A stretch of 38,492 nt of DNA. Origin: a virus. The position numbers and the translations under genes were made by a program. Numbering within the stretch: position 1 is the stretch's first letter; the number at the start of each line of letters is the position of its first letter. The notes under the pieces are model-generated. The model worked only from the letters and a program-made list of their open reading frames with translations, did no database searches and was not told the DNA's origin. Shown one piece after another: positions 1-38,492 of this stretch. The stretch lies in the IMG/VR virus record IMGVR_UViG_3300022756_000003; one strand, written 5' to 3'.

Positions 1-127
1 CGCTTCCACACAGCGCCTCGTTACAATGAGGCCCCGGCCAGGTTGGAGCCTGCCGGGGCACGACACCGAAGGAGTGAACTTCGATGCCCGTCCATGTTAG
101 CCCACCCAAGTACCCCGGGAAGTCGCG
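1..127. repeat. Terminal direct repeat, copy 1 (identical to 38366..38492)
   Basis: Bases 1-127 (cgcttccacacagcgcctcg...gggaagtcgcg) recur exactly as the last 127 bases, so the unique unit is 38365 bp. 127 is also a common maximum assembler k-mer, so this most likely marks a circular assembly path rather than a measured physical end. Confidence 0.95.
22..27 (+). promoter_or_regulatory. Candidate -10 hexamer TACAAT upstream of HNH gene 84..494
   Basis: TACAAT is a rare AT-rich hexamer in the 72-bp divergent spacer between the minus-strand start at position 11 and the plus-strand ATG at 84. An AAGGAG RBS lies at 69..74. No convincing -35. Confidence 0.3.
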
Positions 128-494
128 GCCGGGCAAACTCCGCGATGGCGACAAGGCTCGTGCGCACCGGCGCATCTGGTACCTCATCAGCGTCGGGCGC
201 CTCCCCAGTCCCCGCGCGTTTGCGTGCATGGACTGCGGGGCACCGGCTCGAGACTACGACCACTACCTCGGGTACGCGGTCATCCACCACCTGGACGTGG
301 AGCCGGTCTGCCACTCCTGCAATATCAAGCGCGGCTTCGCCCGGGGGGAGTTCCGCTCGCGCAAGGGCCAGGGGCAGAAGACCTTTGCCTGCCGCGTCTG
401 CGGGCGGGAGGAAGGCCCGTTCCGGCATGGCCGCTGCAACCGGTGCCGCCAGTACTTCGACGTCCACGGCGCTGACCGTCTCGGCCCCCCCTAG
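84..494 (+). CDS. HNH endonuclease with C-terminal Cys4 zinc ribbon
   Basis: 136 aa. ATG 84 preceded by AAGGAG. High third-position GC. Motifs CMDCGAPARDYDHYLGY...HHLDVEPVCHSCNIKR (HNH-type) and CRVCG...CNRCRQY. The start lies inside the terminal repeat. The gene is opposite in strand to both neighbours. Confidence 0.85.
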   Translation: MPVHVSPPKYPGKSRPGKLRDGDKARAHRRIWYLISVGRLPSPRAFACMDCGAPARDYDHYLGYAVIHHLDVEPVCHSCNIKRGFARGEFRSRKGQGQKTFACRVCGREEGPFRHGRCNRCRQYFDVHGADRLGPP

Positions 495-30769: not shown

Positions 30770-31381
30770 ATGCTGCTCATGACCGAGACGGAGCGCACGC
30801 TGCCGGGGCCCGAGCCGCCGGCGGAGGAGGACGGCAACGGGCACGGGGACGGGGGCGAGGACGGGCCGTCGCCGTACGAGCGGGCGCAGCGGCGGCTGCG
30901 GGTGGACGGGGTGGTATTCGGCAAGGCGCTCACCCGGTTGCGGGAGGCGGAGGGCTGGTCGGTGCGGACGCTCTCCCGCAAGAGCGGGGTGCCGCTGACC
31001 ACGCTGGCCAAGCTCGAGCGGGGCGAGACGCCGAAGCCGGACGTGGAGGTGGCCTGCGCCCTGGCCCTCACGTTCGGCTACGGCAGTCCCGGGGCCATGC
31101 TGGGCGCCGGGTCCACCCGCGGCCCGGCGGGGCGCGGGGGCGGCCGGTACGCGGCCGACGTGCCGGCGGCCCTGACGCTGGAGCGGCTGGTGGAGAGCCT
31201 CCTGCGCGGGATCTGGGCCGCCAACGACGCCCGCCCCGGCGGGGCCCTCGTTACCGAAGCGCTACCGGAGGGGGAGCCCGGCGAGCGGGTGAGCGAGGCG
31301 CTCCGGCGGGTGCCCGGCCCGCCGGGGATGAACCTCTACGTCCCGCTCGTGGTGCTGGTCGAGCCCCGCACGGTGGGCTAA
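30770..31381 (+). CDS. CI-like repressor (XRE HTH)
   Basis: 203 aa from ATG 30770 (alternative 30779). FGKALTRLREAEGWSVRTLSRKSGVPLTTLAKLERGETPKP. Divergent from the Cro-like gene. No obvious S24 peptidase motif in the C-terminal half. Confidence 0.85.
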   Translation: MLLMTETERTLPGPEPPAEEDGNGHGDGGEDGPSPYERAQRRLRVDGVVFGKALTRLREAEGWSVRTLSRKSGVPLTTLAKLERGETPKPDVEVACALALTFGYGSPGAMLGAGSTRGPAGRGGGRYAADVPAALTLERLVESLLRGIWAANDARPGGALVTEALPEGEPGERVSEALRRVPGPPGMNLYVPLVVLVEPRTVG

Positions 31382-33249
31382 GCGGCGTGCAGGAGAAGCC
31401 CGCCGCCGGGGGCCACCGCCAGGTAGACGGCGGGCGGGACGGACGTACGCGCCAGTGGGAACGACCAGACCTGGTCGTGTCCGCTCGTGCCCACGGCGGC
31501 CAGCAGGGCGCGCACCGCCTCCGGCACCGCCGGCGGGAACCCCACCTCCACCCGGTCGCCCGTCCCCAGCCAGGGCCGGTCCGGGTCGGCCCGGTTCGCC
31601 GGGTGCACCACCGCCCGGGGCCGGAACAGGGCCACCGCCTGGCGGAAGAGCCGGGGCGCCGCGTCCGGCGCCGCGAGCAGGTCGACCAGCTGCCCCGCCT
31701 GGGCCGCGAACCCGCGCACGTTGGCCAGCACCTCGTCCACCTCGGCCAGCCGGGCCTCCGCCGTCCGCAGGTCGGCCAGCAGGCCGTCGCGGTGGCGCCC
31801 CTTCTCGTCCAGCTTGCGGGCGAGCACGTCGCGGCCGTAGCCGGCGGGCGTGACCGCGATCTGCTCCGCGAGGTTGTCCGCCTCGCCCTCGAGGTCGGCC
31901 AGCGTGGCCCGGATGGCCTCCCGCTCCGCCCCGGCCCGGAGCCGGTCGGCCTCCGAGACGCCCCCGGCCTCGCGGTACTCCCGCAGCAGCCGCTCCACCT
32001 CCGCCGGTTGGTTGAGGACGCCGAGCAGGGCCAGGAAGACCTCGCGCTCGAGCGCCTCCCGGCCGATGCTCACCGGGTGGGCGCAGACCCGCTCCCCGTA
32101 GCGGTTGGCCTTGCAGTCGTAGCGGGGCGTGCGCCGCCGCTGCCCCGTCTCCGGGTCGGGCTGGCCCCACCGGGCGTAGTGGGCCCGCAGCTCGCCCCCG
32201 CACAGCCCGCAGACCGCGTAGCCGCCGAGGAGCTGCCAGTCGCTCTGGGGCGCTCCTCCCGCACGCCGCGTGCCCCGGTGCGCCGCCTGCCGCGCCGCGT
32301 TGGCGTCCAGCGCCGCCTGCGCCGCGTCGAACTCCTCCGGGGTCACGGGCGGGCGGCCCTCGGGGGCGCGCAGGTCGGGGCCGGCGCCCGCCGGGGTGAG
32401 CACCTGCTTGCGCACCCGGCGCCCGAGGCGCTGCTCCACGTCGTTGCGGTAGCGCAGGCCCTTGGGCTCGCCGCAGTACAGCGGGTTGCGGAGCAGCAGG
32501 CTGAGGCTGCGCTGGTACCAGACGGCGCCGCCCATGGGGGCGGGCACCCGCCGGCGGGTGAGGGCGCTGGTCACCGCGTTCTGGCCCTGCCCGGCGATGA
32601 CGTCCAGGAAGGCGGAGCGGAGCACCTGCCACTCGCCGTGCTCCGGCGGGAGGAAGCGGTAGTGGGTGTGGGCGTCGTCGGCCCAGACGGTGCCGTAGGG
32701 CGTCTTCGGGCCGTGCAGGGTGCGCCCCGCGTCCAGGCGGGCCCGCTTGTTGCGGCTGAACTGCTCCTTCAGGCTCTCGATGCGCAGCGTGTTGAACTCC
32801 ACCATCACGGTCTTGCCGATGCGCCCGATGGGGTTGTCTTCGAACGCCTGCTGCACGAACGCCAGGCGGGCGCCGTACCGCTCGAGGAGGTGCTCCAGGG
32901 CGCCCACCTGGGTGCTGGTGCCCCCCAGGCGCTCCGTCTTCAGGCAGAGCACGACGCCGACCGCGCCGGCCACGACGGCGTCCCGCAGGCGCGCCAGCTC
33001 GGGGCGCTCCCAGAACGCCTGGGAGGAGTAGATCTCGCGGTAGACCGCGGCGATGAACCAGCCGGGCCGGGCCGCGGCGTAGGCCCGGCCCTCCTGCTCC
33101 TGGGTGTCGAGGCTGCGCTTGACGTCGCGCTCGCGGTCGTCCTTGTTCCGCTTCACCCGGACGGGGCGCCCGTCCGGCCCGACGTCGAAGTCCTGGTCGG
33201 GGGAGGACACCCGCAGGTAGAGGTGGACGGGGACGGGCTCAGCGGCCAT
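31378..33249 (-). CDS. Large serine recombinase (integrase)
   Basis: 623 aa. Resolvase-type catalytic N-terminus VHLYLRVSSPDQ, recombinase domain, Cys cluster CGLCGGEL…RYDCK…VCAHP, then a long coiled-coil segment. Confidence 0.95.
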   Translation of the reverse strand: MAAEPVPVHLYLRVSSPDQDFDVGPDGRPVRVKRNKDDRERDVKRSLDTQEQEGRAYAAARPGWFIAAVYREIYSSQAFWERPELARLRDAVVAGAVGVVLCLKTERLGGTSTQVGALEHLLERYGARLAFVQQAFEDNPIGRIGKTVMVEFNTLRIESLKEQFSRNKRARLDAGRTLHGPKTPYGTVWADDAHTHYRFLPPEHGEWQVLRSAFLDVIAGQGQNAVTSALTRRRVPAPMGGAVWYQRSLSLLLRNPLYCGEPKGLRYRNDVEQRLGRRVRKQVLTPAGAGPDLRAPEGRPPVTPEEFDAAQAALDANAARQAAHRGTRRAGGAPQSDWQLLGGYAVCGLCGGELRAHYARWGQPDPETGQRRRTPRYDCKANRYGERVCAHPVSIGREALEREVFLALLGVLNQPAEVERLLREYREAGGVSEADRLRAGAEREAIRATLADLEGEADNLAEQIAVTPAGYGRDVLARKLDEKGRHRDGLLADLRTAEARLAEVDEVLANVRGFAAQAGQLVDLLAAPDAAPRLFRQAVALFRPRAVVHPANRADPDRPWLGTGDRVEVGFPPAVPEAVRALLAAVGTSGHDQVWSFPLARTSVPPAVYLAVAPGGGLLLHAA

Positions 33250-33451
33250 CGTCGCTCTTCGGCTGGCGGGCCTTGGTCTGCCGGATGTAGCGCTCGAGGG
33301 CCACGACCACCAGGCGGTTCAGCGAGCTGCGTTGCTCGCGGGCGAGTTCGACCGCTTGGGCGTGGATGTCCTGCGGCAGGCGGGTGGTCACGCTCACGAA
33401 GGCGTCTCTTGTCACGGCGTCAGTGTAGTTGCGGTGCGGTTGTGGTGTCAT
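33239..33451 (-). CDS. Ribbon-helix-helix (CopG/Arc-like) protein upstream of the integrase
   Basis: 70 aa. FVSVTTRLPQDIHAQAVELAREQRSSLNRLVVVALERYI is a typical RHH beta-alpha-alpha. It overlaps the integrase start by 11 nt. Confidence 0.85.
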   Translation of the reverse strand: MTPQPHRNYTDAVTRDAFVSVTTRLPQDIHAQAVELAREQRSSLNRLVVVALERYIRQTKARQPKSDDGR

Positions 33452-35545: not shown

Positions 35546-36082
35546 ATGCGCATTGCCTACGCCGACCCACCGTATCCCGGCTGCTCGAAGCTCTATCCGG
35601 AGAAAGAGGAGGTCGACCACGTCGCCCTGATCCGCCGGCTCAACGCCGACTATCCGGACGGCTGGGCGCTCTCGACCGGGTCGAAGCAGTTGCAGTACGT
35701 CCTGGCGCTCTGCCCGCCGGACGTGCGGGTCGCGGCCTGGTGCAAGACCTACGTGAGCCTCCAGCGGCCCGGCGCCGCCTACGCCTGGGAGCCGGTCATC
35801 TGGCGCGGGGGGCGCAAGCACCGAACGACGCCTCCGGTATTCGACTGGCTGCGCGGGATGCCGTCGATGACGAGGCACCAGGCCGGCTTCCCCGGCGCCA
35901 AGCCGGCCGACTTCTGCCACTGGCTCTTCGCGGTCATGGGGCTGATGGCGGACGACGAGCTGGTCGACCTGTACCCCGGCACCGGCGCCGTGACGCGGGC
36001 CTGGGAGACGTGGCGTCGGCAGACGGTGCTGCCGCTGGGTAAGCGGCCACGCCTCCAGCCGAAGCTGCTTGACGCAAGTTAA
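35546..36082 (+). CDS. DNA methyltransferase, DPPY type (probable N6-adenine; motif IV before motif I)
   Basis: 178 aa from ATG 35546. MRIAYADPPYPG near the N-terminus and ELVDLYPGTGAVTRA (F.G.G-like AdoMet motif) near the C-terminus. Confidence 0.85.
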   Translation: MRIAYADPPYPGCSKLYPEKEEVDHVALIRRLNADYPDGWALSTGSKQLQYVLALCPPDVRVAAWCKTYVSLQRPGAAYAWEPVIWRGGRKHRTTPPVFDWLRGMPSMTRHQAGFPGAKPADFCHWLFAVMGLMADDELVDLYPGTGAVTRAWETWRRQTVLPLGKRPRLQPKLLDAS

Positions 36083-36156
36083 CTCGCAATAGGTTCGGGA
36101 CGATCTGGTGAGAGACGGTCGCCTACACCCGCTGCGCTCGCTGGCGCCGACACCGC

Positions 36157-36228
36157 AGCCCCCACCGGGACTCGAACCCGGAACCTCCGACTTCGCGCGC
36201 CGGTACTCTGCCATTGAGCTATGGGGGA
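36157..36228 (-). tRNA. tRNA-like gene; predicted anticodon GCG (Arg) in a non-canonical loop
   Basis: Minus strand: TCCCCCA-TA-GCTC-AATGGCA-GAGT-A-CCGGC-GCGCGAA-GTCGG-AGGTT-CCGGG-TTCGAGT-CCCGG-TGGGGGC-T. The D arm and T arm/loop are canonical. The anticodon loop has no U33, and positions 1:72 are a T:C mismatch. No CCA is encoded. Confidence 0.6.
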
Positions 36229-36338
36229 AGCGGGCGGCGCCTCCGAGCTGCGGCACCTTCGCCCCGTCGGCCGGGGCTCCCACATTCCACCGGGAGCGAC
36301 CCGGCGCCCTCGGCGACCGCCGCTCCAGTCTAGCGCGC

Positions 36339-36369
36339 GCGCATTAAGTTGCGCATCGTAACAGCGCAT
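36339..36369. promoter_or_regulatory. Three phased GCGCAT boxes
   Basis: GCGCAT at 36339, 36351 and 36364 (spacing 12 and 13 nt) in a low-GC intergenic patch: gcGCGCATtaagttGCGCATcgtaacaGCGCATaaactgcgtg. Confidence 0.4.
36341..36352. repeat. 12-nt direct repeat GCATTAAGTTGC, copy 2
   Basis: Identical to 35495..35506. Confidence 0.9.
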
Positions 36370-36422
36370 AAACTGCGTGAGCAGGGCGCCGGCGCTGTGG
36401 GTGGGATACACCACGGGTAGTT

Positions 36423-36448
36423 CCGCCCGAGCAACCCCGCTCGGGCGG
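36423..36448. promoter_or_regulatory. 10-bp perfect hairpin in the non-coding region
   Basis: CCGCCCGAGC-aacccc-GCTCGGGCGG, 75 nt downstream of the minus-strand gene ending at 36523. No U-tract. Confidence 0.4.
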
Positions 36449-36522
36449 CATCCCGCCGGGACACGCCAGCCCCCCGGACCTCCCACGCTCAAGGGTGGGT
36501 ATGCTGCGGCGCCGTCCCCAGT

Positions 36523-36813
36523 CTACCCGGGCGCGTCGTCCTCGGCGCGGTGGTGCTCGAGCACGGCGCGGGCGACGGTGGCCGCGGCGGACGGGCCCGG
36601 CCGGTAGATCAGCTCCGCGGCGTTTAAGCCCAAGGCGTAGCCGAGCACCCCGGTGCCCAATGCGTGGACCCAGAGCCCGAGGCTGTACGTGCCCGTCAGA
36701 AGTTCCCCCGCGAAGAGGAATAACCACCCGACCACGAAGACGAGCGCGACCGTCTCTCTGATGAGCCACACCGCGAACGATGCGTTTGGCGGTGGGGGGT
36801 TCACGTTACTCAC
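36523..36813 (-). CDS. Membrane protein (96 aa, 2-3 TM, charged C-terminus); second holin-like candidate
   Basis: GTG 36813. …FAVWLIRETVALVFVVGWLFLFAG…LGLWVHALGTGVLGYALGL…EHHRAEDDAPG. Confidence 0.75.
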   Translation of the reverse strand: MSNVNPPPPNASFAVWLIRETVALVFVVGWLFLFAGELLTGTYSLGLWVHALGTGVLGYALGLNAAELIYRPGPSAAATVARAVLEHHRAEDDAPG

Positions 36814-36820
36814 CGTTTGT

Positions 36821-36826
36821 TATCAT
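36821..36826 (+). promoter_or_regulatory. Candidate -10 hexamer TATCAT, 10 nt upstream of ATG 36837
   Basis: ccgtttgtTATCATccagaacggcATG, in the 23-nt divergent gap. Confidence 0.35.
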
Positions 36827-36836
36827 CCAGAACGGC

Positions 36837-37286
36837 ATGACTAGTGGGAGAGCGGCGGCGAGGAAGACCCTGCGGACGTGCCACCAATGTGGCAGTACGT
36901 TCCTGGCGACCCTCTACGATGTCGCCCACGGGCGGGGGCTGTACTGCTCTCGGAAGTGCACCGCGCGGTCGCGGACGGGGGCACGAAACGCCGGATGGCG
37001 GGGCGGCGTGCGTCGGGCGCCCGACGGGCGGATCATCGCCCTGGTGCCGGACCACCCGCGGGCGAACAACAAGGGCTACGTCTTCCGCGCCATCCTGGTG
37101 ATGGAGCGGCTGCTTGGCCGGCATTTGCTGACGAACGAGCACGTCCACCATCTCAACGGGGTGGTAGACGACGACCGGCAGGAGAACCTCGCGGTGATGG
37201 AGGCGAGTGCGCACCTCCGCATGCATCGGCTTGCAAAGCCGAACCCCCGCGATCCCGTCACCGGGCGGTTCCTCGCCGCTCAGTAA
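36837..37286 (+). CDS. HNH endonuclease (HNH_3-type) with N-terminal Cys motif
   Basis: 149 aa from ATG 36837. CHQCGSTF…YCSRKC, then GYVFRAILVMERLLGRHLLTNEHVHHLNGVVDDDRQENLAVMEASAHLRMH. Confidence 0.9.
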   Translation: MTSGRAAARKTLRTCHQCGSTFLATLYDVAHGRGLYCSRKCTARSRTGARNAGWRGGVRRAPDGRIIALVPDHPRANNKGYVFRAILVMERLLGRHLLTNEHVHHLNGVVDDDRQENLAVMEASAHLRMHRLAKPNPRDPVTGRFLAAQ

Positions 37287-38182: not shown

Positions 38183-38376
38183 ACGGCCGTTACCGTACCG
38201 CAGGCGCCCGGCTCCAGCGTCGGGGCCTGGCTCCCCGGCGGGGGCGTCCGGTCGCACTGTCCGGGAGGCGCCCCTTGCCCCAGGGCCGGGCTGGTGAGCA
38301 CCCAGTAGGCGAGGGCCACCCCCGCGAGGAGCCAGAGGGCCAGCAGCAGCCAGCGCAGGGCTTCGCGCTTCCACAC
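38183..38376 (-). CDS. 5' coding segment for an N-terminal signal-anchor peptide, in a different frame from 37721..38182 and with no stop of its own
   Basis: GTG 38376 (equals window position 11, inside the terminal repeat). VWKREALRWLLLALWLLAGVALAYWVLTSPALGQG… with high GC3 and mixed GC2. Further downstream, the same frame becomes a position-2 GC-saturated shadow. Confidence 0.5.
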
Positions 38377-38492
38377 AGCGCCTCGTTACAATGAGGCCCC
38401 GGCCAGGTTGGAGCCTGCCGGGGCACGACACCGAAGGAGTGAACTTCGATGCCCGTCCATGTTAGCCCACCCAAGTACCCCGGGAAGTCGCG
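38366..38492. repeat. Terminal direct repeat, copy 2 (identical to 1..127)
   Basis: Exact 127-nt match to the window start. Confidence 0.95.

What the first reader, a model, noticed from the sequence alone, without database searches (positions are those of the whole stretch)
36157..36228. Phage tRNA-like gene with canonical D and T arms but an anticodon loop lacking U33
The cloverleaf folds cleanly. It has D arm GCTC/GAGT with a GG loop, T arm CCGGG-TTCGAGT-CCCGG and a 5-nt variable loop.

The 7-nt anticodon loop is GCGCGAA. It contains no U at all, so the near-universal U33 is a C and position 32 is a G. The acceptor stem ends in a T1:C72 mismatch. Read conventionally, the anticodon is GCG (Arg, codons CGC/CGU), and CGC appears to be the dominant Arg codon in this genome.

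Three readings are possible. It could be a decaying pseudo-tRNA. It could be a functional tRNA whose altered loop escapes anticodon-loop nucleases; loop-altered phage tRNAs that resist tRNA-targeting defences have been reported in other phages. Or it could be a tRNA-shaped decoy or regulatory RNA.
Basis: partly seen in the sequence, partly recalled or inferred. Interest (0 to 1): 0.65.

Follow-up and report, generated by a model that had tools for sequence, protein, structure and literature searches.

The report
Phage tRNA-shaped gene, swappable anticodon arm
A soil phage carries a real tRNA-shaped gene built on an asparagine-tRNA body with a rule-breaking anticodon loop; the only relative found keeps the body almost unchanged but has a completely different anticodon arm, so it probably does not work as an ordinary arginine tRNA.

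Summary
The gene lies on the minus strand (36228->36157). ARAGORN calls it tRNA-Arg(GCG); Rfam tRNA scores 50.3 bits (threshold 29). The loop is GCGCGAA (G32, C33), with a U1·C72 mismatch and U73. The sequence is identical in nine independent assemblies, so it is not an error.

It is not a normal tRNA-Arg. It lacks A20, and with the loop masked the body is tRNA-Asn-like (53/65 identical to actinophage tRNA-Asn, 44/65 or less to tRNA-Arg). It sits in a ~470-bp accessory cassette that a close relative replaces with two protein genes.

A related phage (L166, integrase 73% identical) has a homologous ~124-nt unit at a different locus. Leader, trailer, U1·C72, U73 and the D and T arms are shared, and two stem pairs changed on both sides. 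The anticodon-arm tip is unrelated: 10/13 positions differ against 3/59 elsewhere (p=1e-7). Its 'anticodon' AAU matches a codon that phage uses once in 3,935.

Best reading (0.42): a tRNA-derived RNA selected for its body, not for decoding. Rivals: an odd but working tRNA, a relic, or a cis or DNA-level element. Only two lineages were found and function is untested.

The parts
36157..36228 (-). 72-nt tRNA-shaped gene. The scaffold is Asn-type. It has a U1·C72 mismatch and U73, and no CCA is encoded.
   Evidence: ARAGORN; Rfam RF00005 50.3 bits; stem-by-stem pairing; identical in nine assemblies.
36192..36198 (-). Anticodon loop GCGCGAA: G32 C33 G34 C35 G36 A37 A38.
   Evidence: Read directly from the sequence and from the Rfam alignment. 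It breaks the near-universal Y32 and U33 rules.
36189..36201 (-). Hypervariable tip of the anticodon arm (tRNA positions 29-41).
   Evidence: 10 of 13 positions differ from the L166 homolog, against 3 of 59 elsewhere; Fisher p=1.3e-7. Identity of 3/13 is at the random level.
36229..36240 (-). Conserved 5' leader (...CGCCGCCCGCU), with U at -1.
   Evidence: The 11 bases next to the tRNA are identical in L166. They pair with the trailer in the predicted folds. Inverted repeat I6.
36116..36156 (-). Conserved 3' trailer: GCGG, then a variable hairpin region, then the block GCGCAGCGGGUGUAGGC(G/C)ACCG.
   Evidence: blastn homology window 36239-36116 to L166 5958-6079; alignment A5; consensus fold with a downstream hairpin.
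36070..36540 (.). Accessory cassette of about 470 bp between the convergent ends of the methyltransferase gene and the 82-aa ORF.
   Evidence: The close relative L156 (82-94% nucleotide identity in the flanks) has two protein genes here instead: a 133-aa ORF and a DUF6610 protein.
36423..36448 (.). Perfect 10-bp hairpin (CCGCCCGAGC-aacccc-GCUCGGGCGG) between the 82-aa ORF and the tRNA. It is probably a terminator.
   Evidence: Inverted repeat I14. The terminator role is an inference.
35546..36082 (+). Neighbour gene: putative DPPY-motif DNA methyltransferase, convergent with the tRNA.
   Evidence: Motif read from the translation. No Pfam hit. Exact protein found on 22 contigs read.
36523..36771 (-). 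Neighbour gene: 82-aa ORF of unknown function, upstream of the tRNA on the same strand.
   Evidence: Called gene in all assemblies. Conserved in L156, which has no tRNA.
31378..33249 (-). Large serine integrase. It was used to find related phages. The tRNA unit is not its attP.
   Evidence: Pfam Resolvase, Recombinase and Zn_ribbon_recom. Relatives L167-L170, L172 and L174 carry the integrase but no tRNA unit in the sequence held.

Best explanation
The gene is a tRNA-derived, tRNA-shaped RNA gene carried as an accessory (moron-like) cassette by an uncultured temperate high-GC phage, probably an actinophage.

It descends from a phage-type tRNA-Asn scaffold. Selection now maintains the tRNA body and its flanks:
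- the acceptor, D and T arms;
- the U1·C72 mismatch, U73 and U at -1;
- an 11-nt leader and a trailer of about 45 nt, which can pair to extend the acceptor helix.

The tip of the anticodon arm is free to change or is actively swapped.

Proposed mechanism (inferred, not shown): the RNA is transcribed from the minus strand and folds into the L-shape. It acts in trans through the parts of a tRNA that are read without the anticodon. Those parts are bound by RNase P, RNase Z, the CCA-adding enzyme, and host toxins or defence enzymes that act on the acceptor end or elbow. On this reading it is a mimic or decoy, or a tRNA-like module inside a longer RNA of about 130 nt. It does not deliver arginine at CGC codons.

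Shown: the cloverleaf, the Asn-type body, cassette presence/absence, and the conserved-body/variable-arm pattern.

Inferred: transcription, processing, trans action, and the binding partner.
For: (1) Real, error-free tRNA shape.

(2) Body is Asn-type, not Arg-type. Loop-masked identity is 53/65 to the Alone3 and DatBoi tRNA-Asn and 44/65 or less to tRNA-Arg. 17 of the 20 blastn hits in 50,697 phage records are tRNA-Asn. All 10 listed hits for the L166 homolog are tRNA-Asn.

(3) Identity elements of both candidate isotypes are missing (PMC9976931 Table 1):
- C20 instead of A20, and U73 instead of A/G73, for Arg;
- no GUU anticodon and no G73 for Asn.

(4) Homolog in L166:
- it scores 52.7 bits with the Rfam tRNA model;
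- about 124 nt are shared, including leader, trailer, U1·C72 and U73;
- positions 29-41 differ at 10/13 against 3/59 elsewhere (p=1.3e-7).

(5) Body identity of 56/59 far exceeds the 65.5% identity at synonymous-type third positions of the integrase (P=7e-8). The arm, at 3/13, is at random level.

(6) Changes on both sides keep pairs 7:66 and 29:41. The consensus fold recovers the cloverleaf, a leader-trailer helix and a 3' hairpin.

(7) There is no consistent decoding logic:
- GCG matches the commonest Arg codon in the window phage;
- AAU matches ATT, used once in 3,935 codons in L166;
- both are anticodons bacteria normally lack (established knowledge; Alone3 carries ACG and GAU instead).

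(8) The unit sits at two different convergent-gene junctions next to unrelated genes. It is absent from the sibling phages L156 and L170. This argues against a cis role tied to one gene.
Against: - Only two lineages are known, so 'hypervariable' rests on one comparison.
- Recent lateral transfer of the cassette could explain the high body identity without purifying selection.
- No expression, processing or binding data exist, and no promoter was detected by the consensus scan.
- The leader-trailer helix is only modestly better than shuffled sequence (z = -2.4 and -1.8). Inverted repeats are common in this GC-rich DNA (18 pairs in 700 bp).
- The L166 loop UUAAUGA obeys the Y32, U33 and R37 rules, so that copy could still decode.
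- C33 is tolerated in some natural tRNAs (eukaryotic initiators; own knowledge). The window copy has C35 and G36, which are Arg determinants.
- No partner protein or target was identified. No antisense target for either arm was found.
Confidence: 0.42

Rival explanations
1. It is a working, if unusual, decoding tRNA that reads CGC/CGU as arginine (or as another amino acid). Its altered loop may resist an anticodon nuclease. Within the family, the anticodon arm is re-targeted to different codons.
For: - Perfect cloverleaf with all tertiary-interaction nucleotides (G18G19, U54U55C56, A58), scoring 50.3 bits.
- C35 and G36 are Arg determinants, and C3-G70 and U73 appear in the bacterial Arg row of the identity table (PMC9976931).
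- CGC is the commonest Arg codon.
- The anticodon stem stays paired through changes on both sides.
- Phage tRNAs with loop changes that evade nucleases are documented (PMC10264068, PMC11555353).
Against: - A20, the main ArgRS determinant in bacteria, is absent (C20).
- The body is Asn-type.
- G32 and C33 break two near-universal loop rules, and the 1:72 pair is mismatched.
- GCG is not a standard bacterial anticodon, so there is no host tRNA of that anticodon to replace.
- The homolog's AAU has essentially no codons to read: ATT occurs once in 3,935 codons.
- Documented escape tRNAs keep the host anticodon and occur in tRNA-rich lytic phages.
Confidence: 0.2
2. It is a non-functional relic: a phage tRNA-Asn gene that lost its anticodon and acceptor identity and is drifting under GC-biased mutation. 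Its similarity to the L166 copy reflects recent shared ancestry or lateral transfer of the cassette.
For: - Four of the six differences from the Asn consensus at identity positions are AT-to-GC changes.
- The score is about 15 bits below a bona fide actinophage tRNA-Asn.
- The gene is dispensable, since the sibling phages L156 and L170 lack it.
- No promoter match was found.
Against: - Divergence is extremely non-uniform: 10/13 positions differ in the arm tip against 3/59 elsewhere, p=1.3e-7.
- All other A/U-rich conserved loop positions are intact.
- Two stem pairs changed on both sides and stayed paired.
- The odd U1·C72 and U73 are themselves conserved in both copies.
- The body is far more conserved than synonymous-type sites.
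Confidence: 0.18
3. It is a cis-acting or DNA-level element rather than a trans-acting RNA. Options are a tRNA-like processing or 3'-end stability signal (RNase P/Z 'punctuation') with a terminator at convergent gene ends, or a small mobile element with inverted-repeat ends.
For: - Both copies lie exactly between convergent gene ends. In L166 the copy lies 62 nt after the integrase stop codon, on the same strand.
- The trailer hairpin is conserved.
- A 14-nt inverted repeat flanks the tRNA (I6).
- The unit occupies two different loci in related genomes.
Against: - The upstream genes are unrelated in the two phages, and their homologs function without the unit in sibling phages.
- There are no target-site duplications and no transposase. 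The two cassettes share only the unit of about 124 nt.
- Inverted repeats of this size are frequent by chance in this DNA.
Confidence: 0.12
4. tRNA-dependent lysogeny: integration destroys an essential host tRNA gene, and the phage copy replaces it.
For: - The phage is temperate (serine integrase, HTH repressor) and carries a single tRNA.
- In L166 the tRNA lies directly beside the integrase gene, as in some described cases (PMC10865867).
- Serine integrases do not rebuild their target (own knowledge).
Against: - All described cases use tyrosine integrases and standard, cognate tRNAs.
- Here both anticodons are non-standard and differ between phages with related integrases.
- L170 has an integrase gene 88% identical in nucleotide sequence to that of L166, but no tRNA in the 13.6 kb held.
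- No integrated relative was found, so attB is unknown.
Confidence: 0.04

Closest known systems
Lone tRNA-Asn genes of actinophages (for example Streptomyces phages Alone3 and WheeHeim, Gordonia phage DatBoi, Mycobacterium phage Luchador)
   Same: The scaffold matches. Shared features are U1, the C-rich 5' acceptor strand, D arm UAGCUCAAU(U)GGCAGAG, variable loop AGGUU and T arm CC(U/G)GG-UUCGAGU-CC(A/C)GG. Loop-masked identity is 53/65.
   Different: Those genes have the canonical loop CUGUUAA, a U1-A72 pair and G73. This gene has GCGCGAA, U1·C72 and U73, so every Asn identity element (anticodon and discriminator) is gone.
Nuclease-escape phage tRNAs (van den Berg et al. 2023, PMC10264068; retron/PARIS-evading tRNAs, PMC11555353)
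   Same: These are phage-encoded tRNAs whose anticodon loop differs from the host version. The changes concentrate in the anticodon loop.
   Different: - Those keep the host tRNA's anticodon and carry changes at the cleavage or recognition site. They are found mainly in tRNA-rich lytic phages.
- Here the whole arm tip is different and U33 and Y32 are lost.
- The anticodon is one bacteria do not use, and it is not conserved in the homolog.
Dual-identity tRNA-ProX family of Streptomyces and Kitasatospora (Schuntermann et al. 2023, PMC10404621)
   Same: A conserved scaffold of one isotype carries swapped anticodons, including A34 types that bacteria do not normally use. It occurs in high-GC Actinomycetota.
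   Different: - The ProX tRNAs keep a proline-tRNA structure and sit next to a dedicated ProRS isoform.
- Here the scaffold is Asn-type with a mismatched 1:72 pair, and no synthetase gene was recognised in the window.
- Charging is untested.
Bacillus cereus tRNA-Other, a pseudo-tRNA within a larger regulatory RNA (Rogers et al. 2012, PMC3399842)
   Same: It is a tRNA-like gene associated with mobile DNA that does not function in translation. It is proposed to act as a tRNA-like structural element inside a longer transcript. Here, too, the conserved flanks suggest a unit larger than the tRNA.
   Different: - The lineage and host are different, and that example is chromosomal rather than phage-borne.
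- No transcript mapping or phenotype exists here.
- There is no sequence relationship.
tRNA-dependent lysogeny tRNAs (Guerrero-Bustamante & Hatfull 2024, PMC10865867)
   Same: A single tRNA gene in a temperate actinophage, sometimes next to the integrase gene, and variably present among close relatives.
   Different: Those are standard cognate tRNAs paired with tyrosine integrases that target tRNA genes. Here the integrase is a serine recombinase and the anticodons are non-standard and non-conserved.

Membership tests
tRNA (Rfam RF00005, structural family) | Cloverleaf with 7/4/5/5-bp stems that scores above the family gathering score | tested here: met
   50.3 bits against a gathering score of 29, full-length model. 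20 of 21 stem pairs are standard.
tRNA (Rfam RF00005, structural family) | Elbow nucleotides G18G19 and the T loop U54U55C56...A58 | tested here: met
   D loop AAUGGCA and T loop UUCGAGU.
Canonical decoding (elongator) tRNA | Anticodon loop with pyrimidine-32, U33 and purine-37 | tested here: not met
   The loop is G32 C33 G34 C35 G36 A37 A38; only R37 is satisfied.
Canonical decoding (elongator) tRNA | Paired 1:72 at the top of the acceptor stem | tested here: not met
   U1·C72 mismatch, conserved in the L166 homolog.
Canonical decoding (elongator) tRNA | Anticodon conserved among orthologs and matched to codon use | tested here: not met
   GCG in the window and AAU in L166. ATT occurs once in 3,935 codons in L166.
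Canonical decoding (elongator) tRNA | Expressed, CCA-tailed and aminoacylated | not testable with these tools
   No expression or charging data. CCA is not encoded.
Bacterial tRNA-Arg | A20 in the D loop (main ArgRS determinant) | tested here: not met
   Position 20 is C (D loop AAUGGCA). Criterion from PMC9976931.
Bacterial tRNA-Arg | C35 and G/U36 | tested here: met
   Anticodon G34 C35 G36.
Bacterial tRNA-Arg | A/G73 discriminator | tested here: inconclusive
   The discriminator is U73. The review text gives A/G73, but its Table 1 also lists U73 for bacteria.
Bacterial tRNA-Arg | Body resembles tRNA-Arg genes | tested here: not met
   44/65 or less identical to the actinophage tRNA-Arg genes, against 53/65 to tRNA-Asn.
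tRNA-Asn | Anticodon GUU | tested here: not met
   The anticodon is GCG.
tRNA-Asn | G73 discriminator and U1-A72 pair | tested here: not met
   U73. U1 is present but faces C72.
tRNA-Asn | Scaffold similarity | tested here: met
Nuclease-escape phage tRNA | Same anticodon as a targeted host tRNA, with changes at the cleavage or recognition site | tested here: not met
   The arm tip is wholly different between homologs and the anticodon is non-standard. The host tRNA set is unknown, so a direct comparison was not possible.
tRNA-dependent lysogeny | Tyrosine integrase whose attB overlaps a host tRNA of the same isotype | tested here: not met
   The integrase is a large serine recombinase. attB is unknown.
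tRNA-dependent lysogeny | The tRNA accompanies the integrase in relatives | tested here: not met
   L167-L170, L172 and L174 have the integrase but no tRNA in the sequence held.
Dual-identity (mistranslating) tRNA, ProX type | Adjacent dedicated aminoacyl-tRNA synthetase | tested here: not met
   No synthetase domain in the proteins scanned from the window or in the called genes of its assemblies.
Dual-identity (mistranslating) tRNA, ProX type | One scaffold carrying different non-standard anticodons | tested here: met
   GCG and AAU on bodies that are 95% identical.
Phage attP site of the resident integrase | Present wherever the integrase is present | tested here: not met
   Absent next to closely related integrases (L170 is 88% identical in nucleotide sequence to L166).

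The most novel reading that the evidence does not exclude
These are members of an unrecognised family of phage-borne tRNA-Asn-derived scaffolds. The acceptor end is deliberately non-canonical (U1·C72, U73), and the anticodon arm is exchanged as a module. Two functions are possible. They could be dual-identity tRNAs that insert a scaffold-determined amino acid at arbitrary codons, giving phage-programmed mistranslation or recoding. Or they could be 'programmable' decoys that soak up defence nucleases or toxins that act on tRNA anticodon arms or acceptor ends.
Probability: 0.12. Interest if true: 0.85.

Novelty: new variant of a known kind. Interest (0 to 1): 0.55.

Why it matters
Phage tRNAs are currently explained by codon supply, by replacement of tRNAs cut by host defences, or by complementing a tRNA gene destroyed on integration. 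All three explanations require a conserved, usable anticodon.

A phage tRNA-shaped gene that keeps its body, its flanks and even an odd acceptor-end mismatch, while its anticodon arm is unrelated between relatives, would point to a fourth use of the tRNA fold. That use would be a mimic, decoy or structural module read through the acceptor and elbow.

It would also be a caution for annotation. ARAGORN and Rfam report it as 'tRNA-Arg' and its homolog as 'tRNA-Ile', and neither label is likely to describe what it does.

The claim is directly testable, because the RNA is small and its two natural variants differ in a single 13-nt patch.

Tried and rejected
- **Sequencing or assembly error.** Rejected: the sequence is identical in nine assemblies.
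- **Host tRNA at a prophage junction.** Rejected: the contig is a circular assembly with no host flank.
- **Parent tRNA in 185,579 reference genomes.** A scan with the D and T arms fixed gave 47 hits, nearly all tRNA-Lys, with at most 54/72 identity. The arms are generic and no parent was found.
- **JGI metagenome scan.** It returned two unrelated tRNA-Ile(UAU) genes. The pattern required A7 and U16, so it would have missed L166-type members. That was the only metagenome scan available.
- **IMG/VR pattern scans (five).** They returned nothing or chance hits. The integrase has no IMG/VR relative.
- **Related loci without the tRNA.** 48 methyltransferase-related loci, the terminase relative L049, and the contigs of P0001, P0002 and P0005 carry no tRNA.
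- **attP hypothesis.** Rejected on presence/absence among integrase relatives.
- **Antisense 'seed' hypothesis.** No complementary target for either arm in the sequence held.
- **Transposon hypothesis.** No target-site duplications and no shared ends beyond the unit.
- **Microdiversity test.** The assemblies are 99.6-100% identical, so it is uninformative.
- **Weak ZTP riboswitch hit at 36376-36453.** 19.8 bits against a gathering score of 39, so it is chance.
- **Sigma-70 promoter scan.** No hit. The scan is not tuned for Actinomycetota.
- **Plasmid collection.** Only generic tRNA similarity.

Full report
**1. The observation**

The feature is real and matches the description. It must be read on the minus strand, from 36228 (5' end) to 36157.

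- ARAGORN finds one tRNA in the 38.5-kb window, at these coordinates: tRNA-Arg, anticodon GCG.
- The Rfam tRNA model matches end to end at 50.3 bits against a gathering score of 29, E=4.8e-8.
- All stems pair except U1·C72. The anticodon loop is GCGCGAA (G32, C33). The discriminator is U73, and no CCA is encoded.
- CGC is the commonest Arg codon, 395 of 800.
- The same phage was assembled independently at 38.4-38.5 kb in JGI, ENA and Logan samples. Nine such loci carry an identical tRNA and an identical 440-bp intergenic region. The loop is therefore not an error.
- The loci run across the window's ends, which overlap by about 129 bp. This is a complete circular assembly with no host flank.
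- With the same model, 27 bona fide tRNAs of a cultured actinophage score 36-75 bits (median about 63; its tRNA-Asn 65.5). This gene is clearly tRNA-shaped but penalised.

**2. Context**

The window is a 74% GC temperate phage.

- It encodes a capsid, terminase, M23 peptidases, a large serine integrase and an HTH repressor.
- The nearest cultured phages are actinophages, at only about 37% capsid identity. No nucleotide match exists in 50,697 phage records.
- The tRNA lies in the gap between a putative DPPY-motif methyltransferase gene (35546-36082, +) and an 82-aa ORF (36523-36771, -). HNH endonuclease genes flank this block.

**3. It is not a tRNA-Arg by body**

- Among phage records, 17 of the 20 blastn hits are tRNA-Asn genes.
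- With the loop masked, it is 53/65 identical to the Alone3 and DatBoi tRNA-Asn and 44/65 or less to tRNA-Arg.
- It has C20 where bacterial tRNA-Arg has A20, the main ArgRS determinant (PMC9976931).
- Compared with the Asn scaffold, the differences fall on identity positions. The loop CUGUUAA has become GCGCGAA, and A72-G73 has become C72-U73.
- A genome-wide scan with the D and T arms fixed found only generic matches, nearly all tRNA-Lys, with at most 54/72 identity. No parent tRNA was found.

**4. It is an accessory cassette**

- L156 is 82-94% identical in the flanking genes and is syntenic on both sides.
- In place of window ~36070-36540 it carries two protein genes, a 133-aa ORF and a DUF6610 protein.

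**5. The homolog**

The integrase search gave relatives at 57-89% identity, plus one distant one at 37%. All are metagenomic. One of them, L166 (integrase 73% identical), has a tRNA 62 nt after the integrase stop codon. ARAGORN calls it tRNA-Ile(AAU), and Rfam scores it at 52.7 bits.

It is plainly homologous to the window gene:

- About 124 nt align: window 36239-36116 with L166 5958-6079.
- The 11-nt leader is identical.
- U-1, U1·C72 and U73 are the same, and the D and T arms are identical.
- A trailer block, GCGCAGCGGGUGUAGGC(G/C)ACCG, is conserved.
- Pairs 7:66 (A:U to G:C) and 29:41 (G:C to U:A) changed on both sides and stayed paired.

Positions 29-41 are the exception. They differ at 10 of 13 positions, against 3 of 59 elsewhere (Fisher p=1.3e-7). 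The arms are CCGGC-GCGCGAA-GUCGG and CCUGG-UUAAUGA-GCAGG.

The yardstick is identity at synonymous-type third positions of the two integrase genes, which is 65.5%.

- The body (56/59) is far more conserved than that (P=7e-8).
- The arm tip (3/13) is less conserved than that (P=0.002) and sits at the random level.

L166's sibling L170 is 88% identical on both sides. It has 15 bp where L166 has a 462-bp insertion made of the tRNA unit and an unrelated 80-aa ORF. So the unit sits at two different convergent-gene junctions and is missing from close siblings of both phages.

**6. Decoding logic**

- L166 uses ATT once in 3,935 codons, and ATC 85 times. An AAU anticodon has almost nothing to read.
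- The window's GCG matches the commonest Arg codon.
- Both triplets are ones bacteria normally lack (established knowledge: ICG from ACG reads CGU/CGC/CGA, and GAU reads AUU/AUC; Alone3 carries ACG and GAU).
- No single decoding rationale covers both members.

**7. Structure of the unit**

- Single-sequence folds and the two-sequence consensus fold place the cloverleaf at the tip of a leader-trailer helix. They add a downstream hairpin. Inverted repeat I6 corresponds to the leader-trailer helix.
- Support is modest. The z-scores are -2.4 and -1.8, there are only two sequences, and the DNA is GC-rich.

**8. Interpretation**

- A uniformly decaying pseudogene does not fit the sharply non-uniform divergence, the compensatory changes or the conservation of the odd acceptor end.
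- A working tRNA-Arg that escapes nucleases does not fit for four reasons:
  - the body is Asn-type;
  - A20 is missing;
  - the anticodon is non-standard and not conserved;
  - documented escape tRNAs keep the host anticodon (PMC10264068).
- tRNA-dependent lysogeny (PMC10865867) uses tyrosine integrases and standard cognate tRNAs. Here the relatives that share the integrase lack the tRNA. The same absence argues against the unit being the attP site.
- Best reading, at 0.42 confidence: a tRNA-derived RNA selected for its body and flanks, acting through anticodon-independent recognition as a mimic, a decoy or a module of a longer RNA.
- The closest functional precedents are the B. cereus pseudo-tRNA 'tRNA-Other' (PMC3399842) and, for 'one scaffold, swapped odd anticodons', the Streptomyces tRNA-ProX family (PMC10404621). 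That family always has a dedicated synthetase gene next door, which is absent here.

**9. Limits**

- Only two lineages are known.
- The metagenome pattern was too strict to catch L166-type members.
- The host is unknown, so its tRNA-Arg genes could not be compared.
- There are no expression data.
- Recent lateral transfer of the cassette would weaken the purifying-selection argument. It would then make the arm-tip divergence the anomaly that needs explaining.

**10. Verdict**

- The Arg reading is not supported.
- The gene is best filed as a new variant of a known kind: a phage tRNA-derived, probably non-decoding, tRNA-like gene.
- Interest is moderate. It would rise sharply if a wider census confirms a family with a conserved body and swappable anticodon arms.

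Noticed in passing
window 1-129 and 38364-38492: The two ends of the window overlap by about 129 bp, and independent assemblies run straight across the junction. The window is a complete circular (or circularly permuted) phage genome of about 38.36 kb.
   Followed up: partly
window 36780-37286 (+): This HNH endonuclease gene is absent from the close relative L156, where the flanking sequences are contiguous. It is called as 92 aa instead of 168 aa in another assembly of the same phage (JGI 3300043313). It looks like a mobile or decaying homing endonuclease.
   Followed up: partly
L156 1031-1885: The close relative L156 carries an extra N6_N4 DNA methyltransferase gene between the HNH gene and the DPPY-motif methyltransferase. 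The window lacks it. This whole stretch is a hot spot for gene gain and loss.
   Followed up: no
window 33239-33451 (-): The 70-aa ORF that overlaps the start of the integrase gene has a HicB-family (antitoxin or DNA-binding) hit. The relative L169 has a HicA-toxin-like gene in the same neighbourhood.
   Followed up: no
window 36423-36448: A perfect 10-bp GC-rich hairpin with a 6-nt loop lies between the 82-aa ORF and the tRNA. It is probably a terminator without a U tract. Downstream of it on the minus strand is an AT-richer block (36330-36380) with a possible -10 element, TAGACT, on the minus strand at 36332-36327.
   Followed up: partly
window 36116-36137 (-) and L166 6058-6079: A 22-nt trailer block, GCGCAGCGGGUGUAGGC(G/C)ACCG, lies about 20 nt downstream of the tRNA. 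It is as conserved as the tRNA body itself, and its role is unknown. The two exact 17-mer matches in IMG/VR were chance hits in coding DNA.
   Followed up: partly
window 36074-36087: The palindrome GCAAGTTAAC/GTTAACTCGC (which contains GTTAAC) overlaps the stop codon of the methyltransferase gene. It sits at the left edge of the cassette, next to a TTGACG...TAGGTT promoter-like string.
   Followed up: no
L166 6112-6354 (-): The L166 cassette carries an 80-aa ORF with no Pfam hit and no counterpart in the window. The two cassettes share only the tRNA unit.
   Followed up: partly
phage records H17, H48, H50 (Luchador, WheeHeim, ChiliPepper): tRNA-Asn genes turn up in several small actinophages, including the 18-kb Streptomyces phage WheeHeim. 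They may be the pool from which this scaffold came. Whether each is the only tRNA in its genome was not checked.
   Followed up: no
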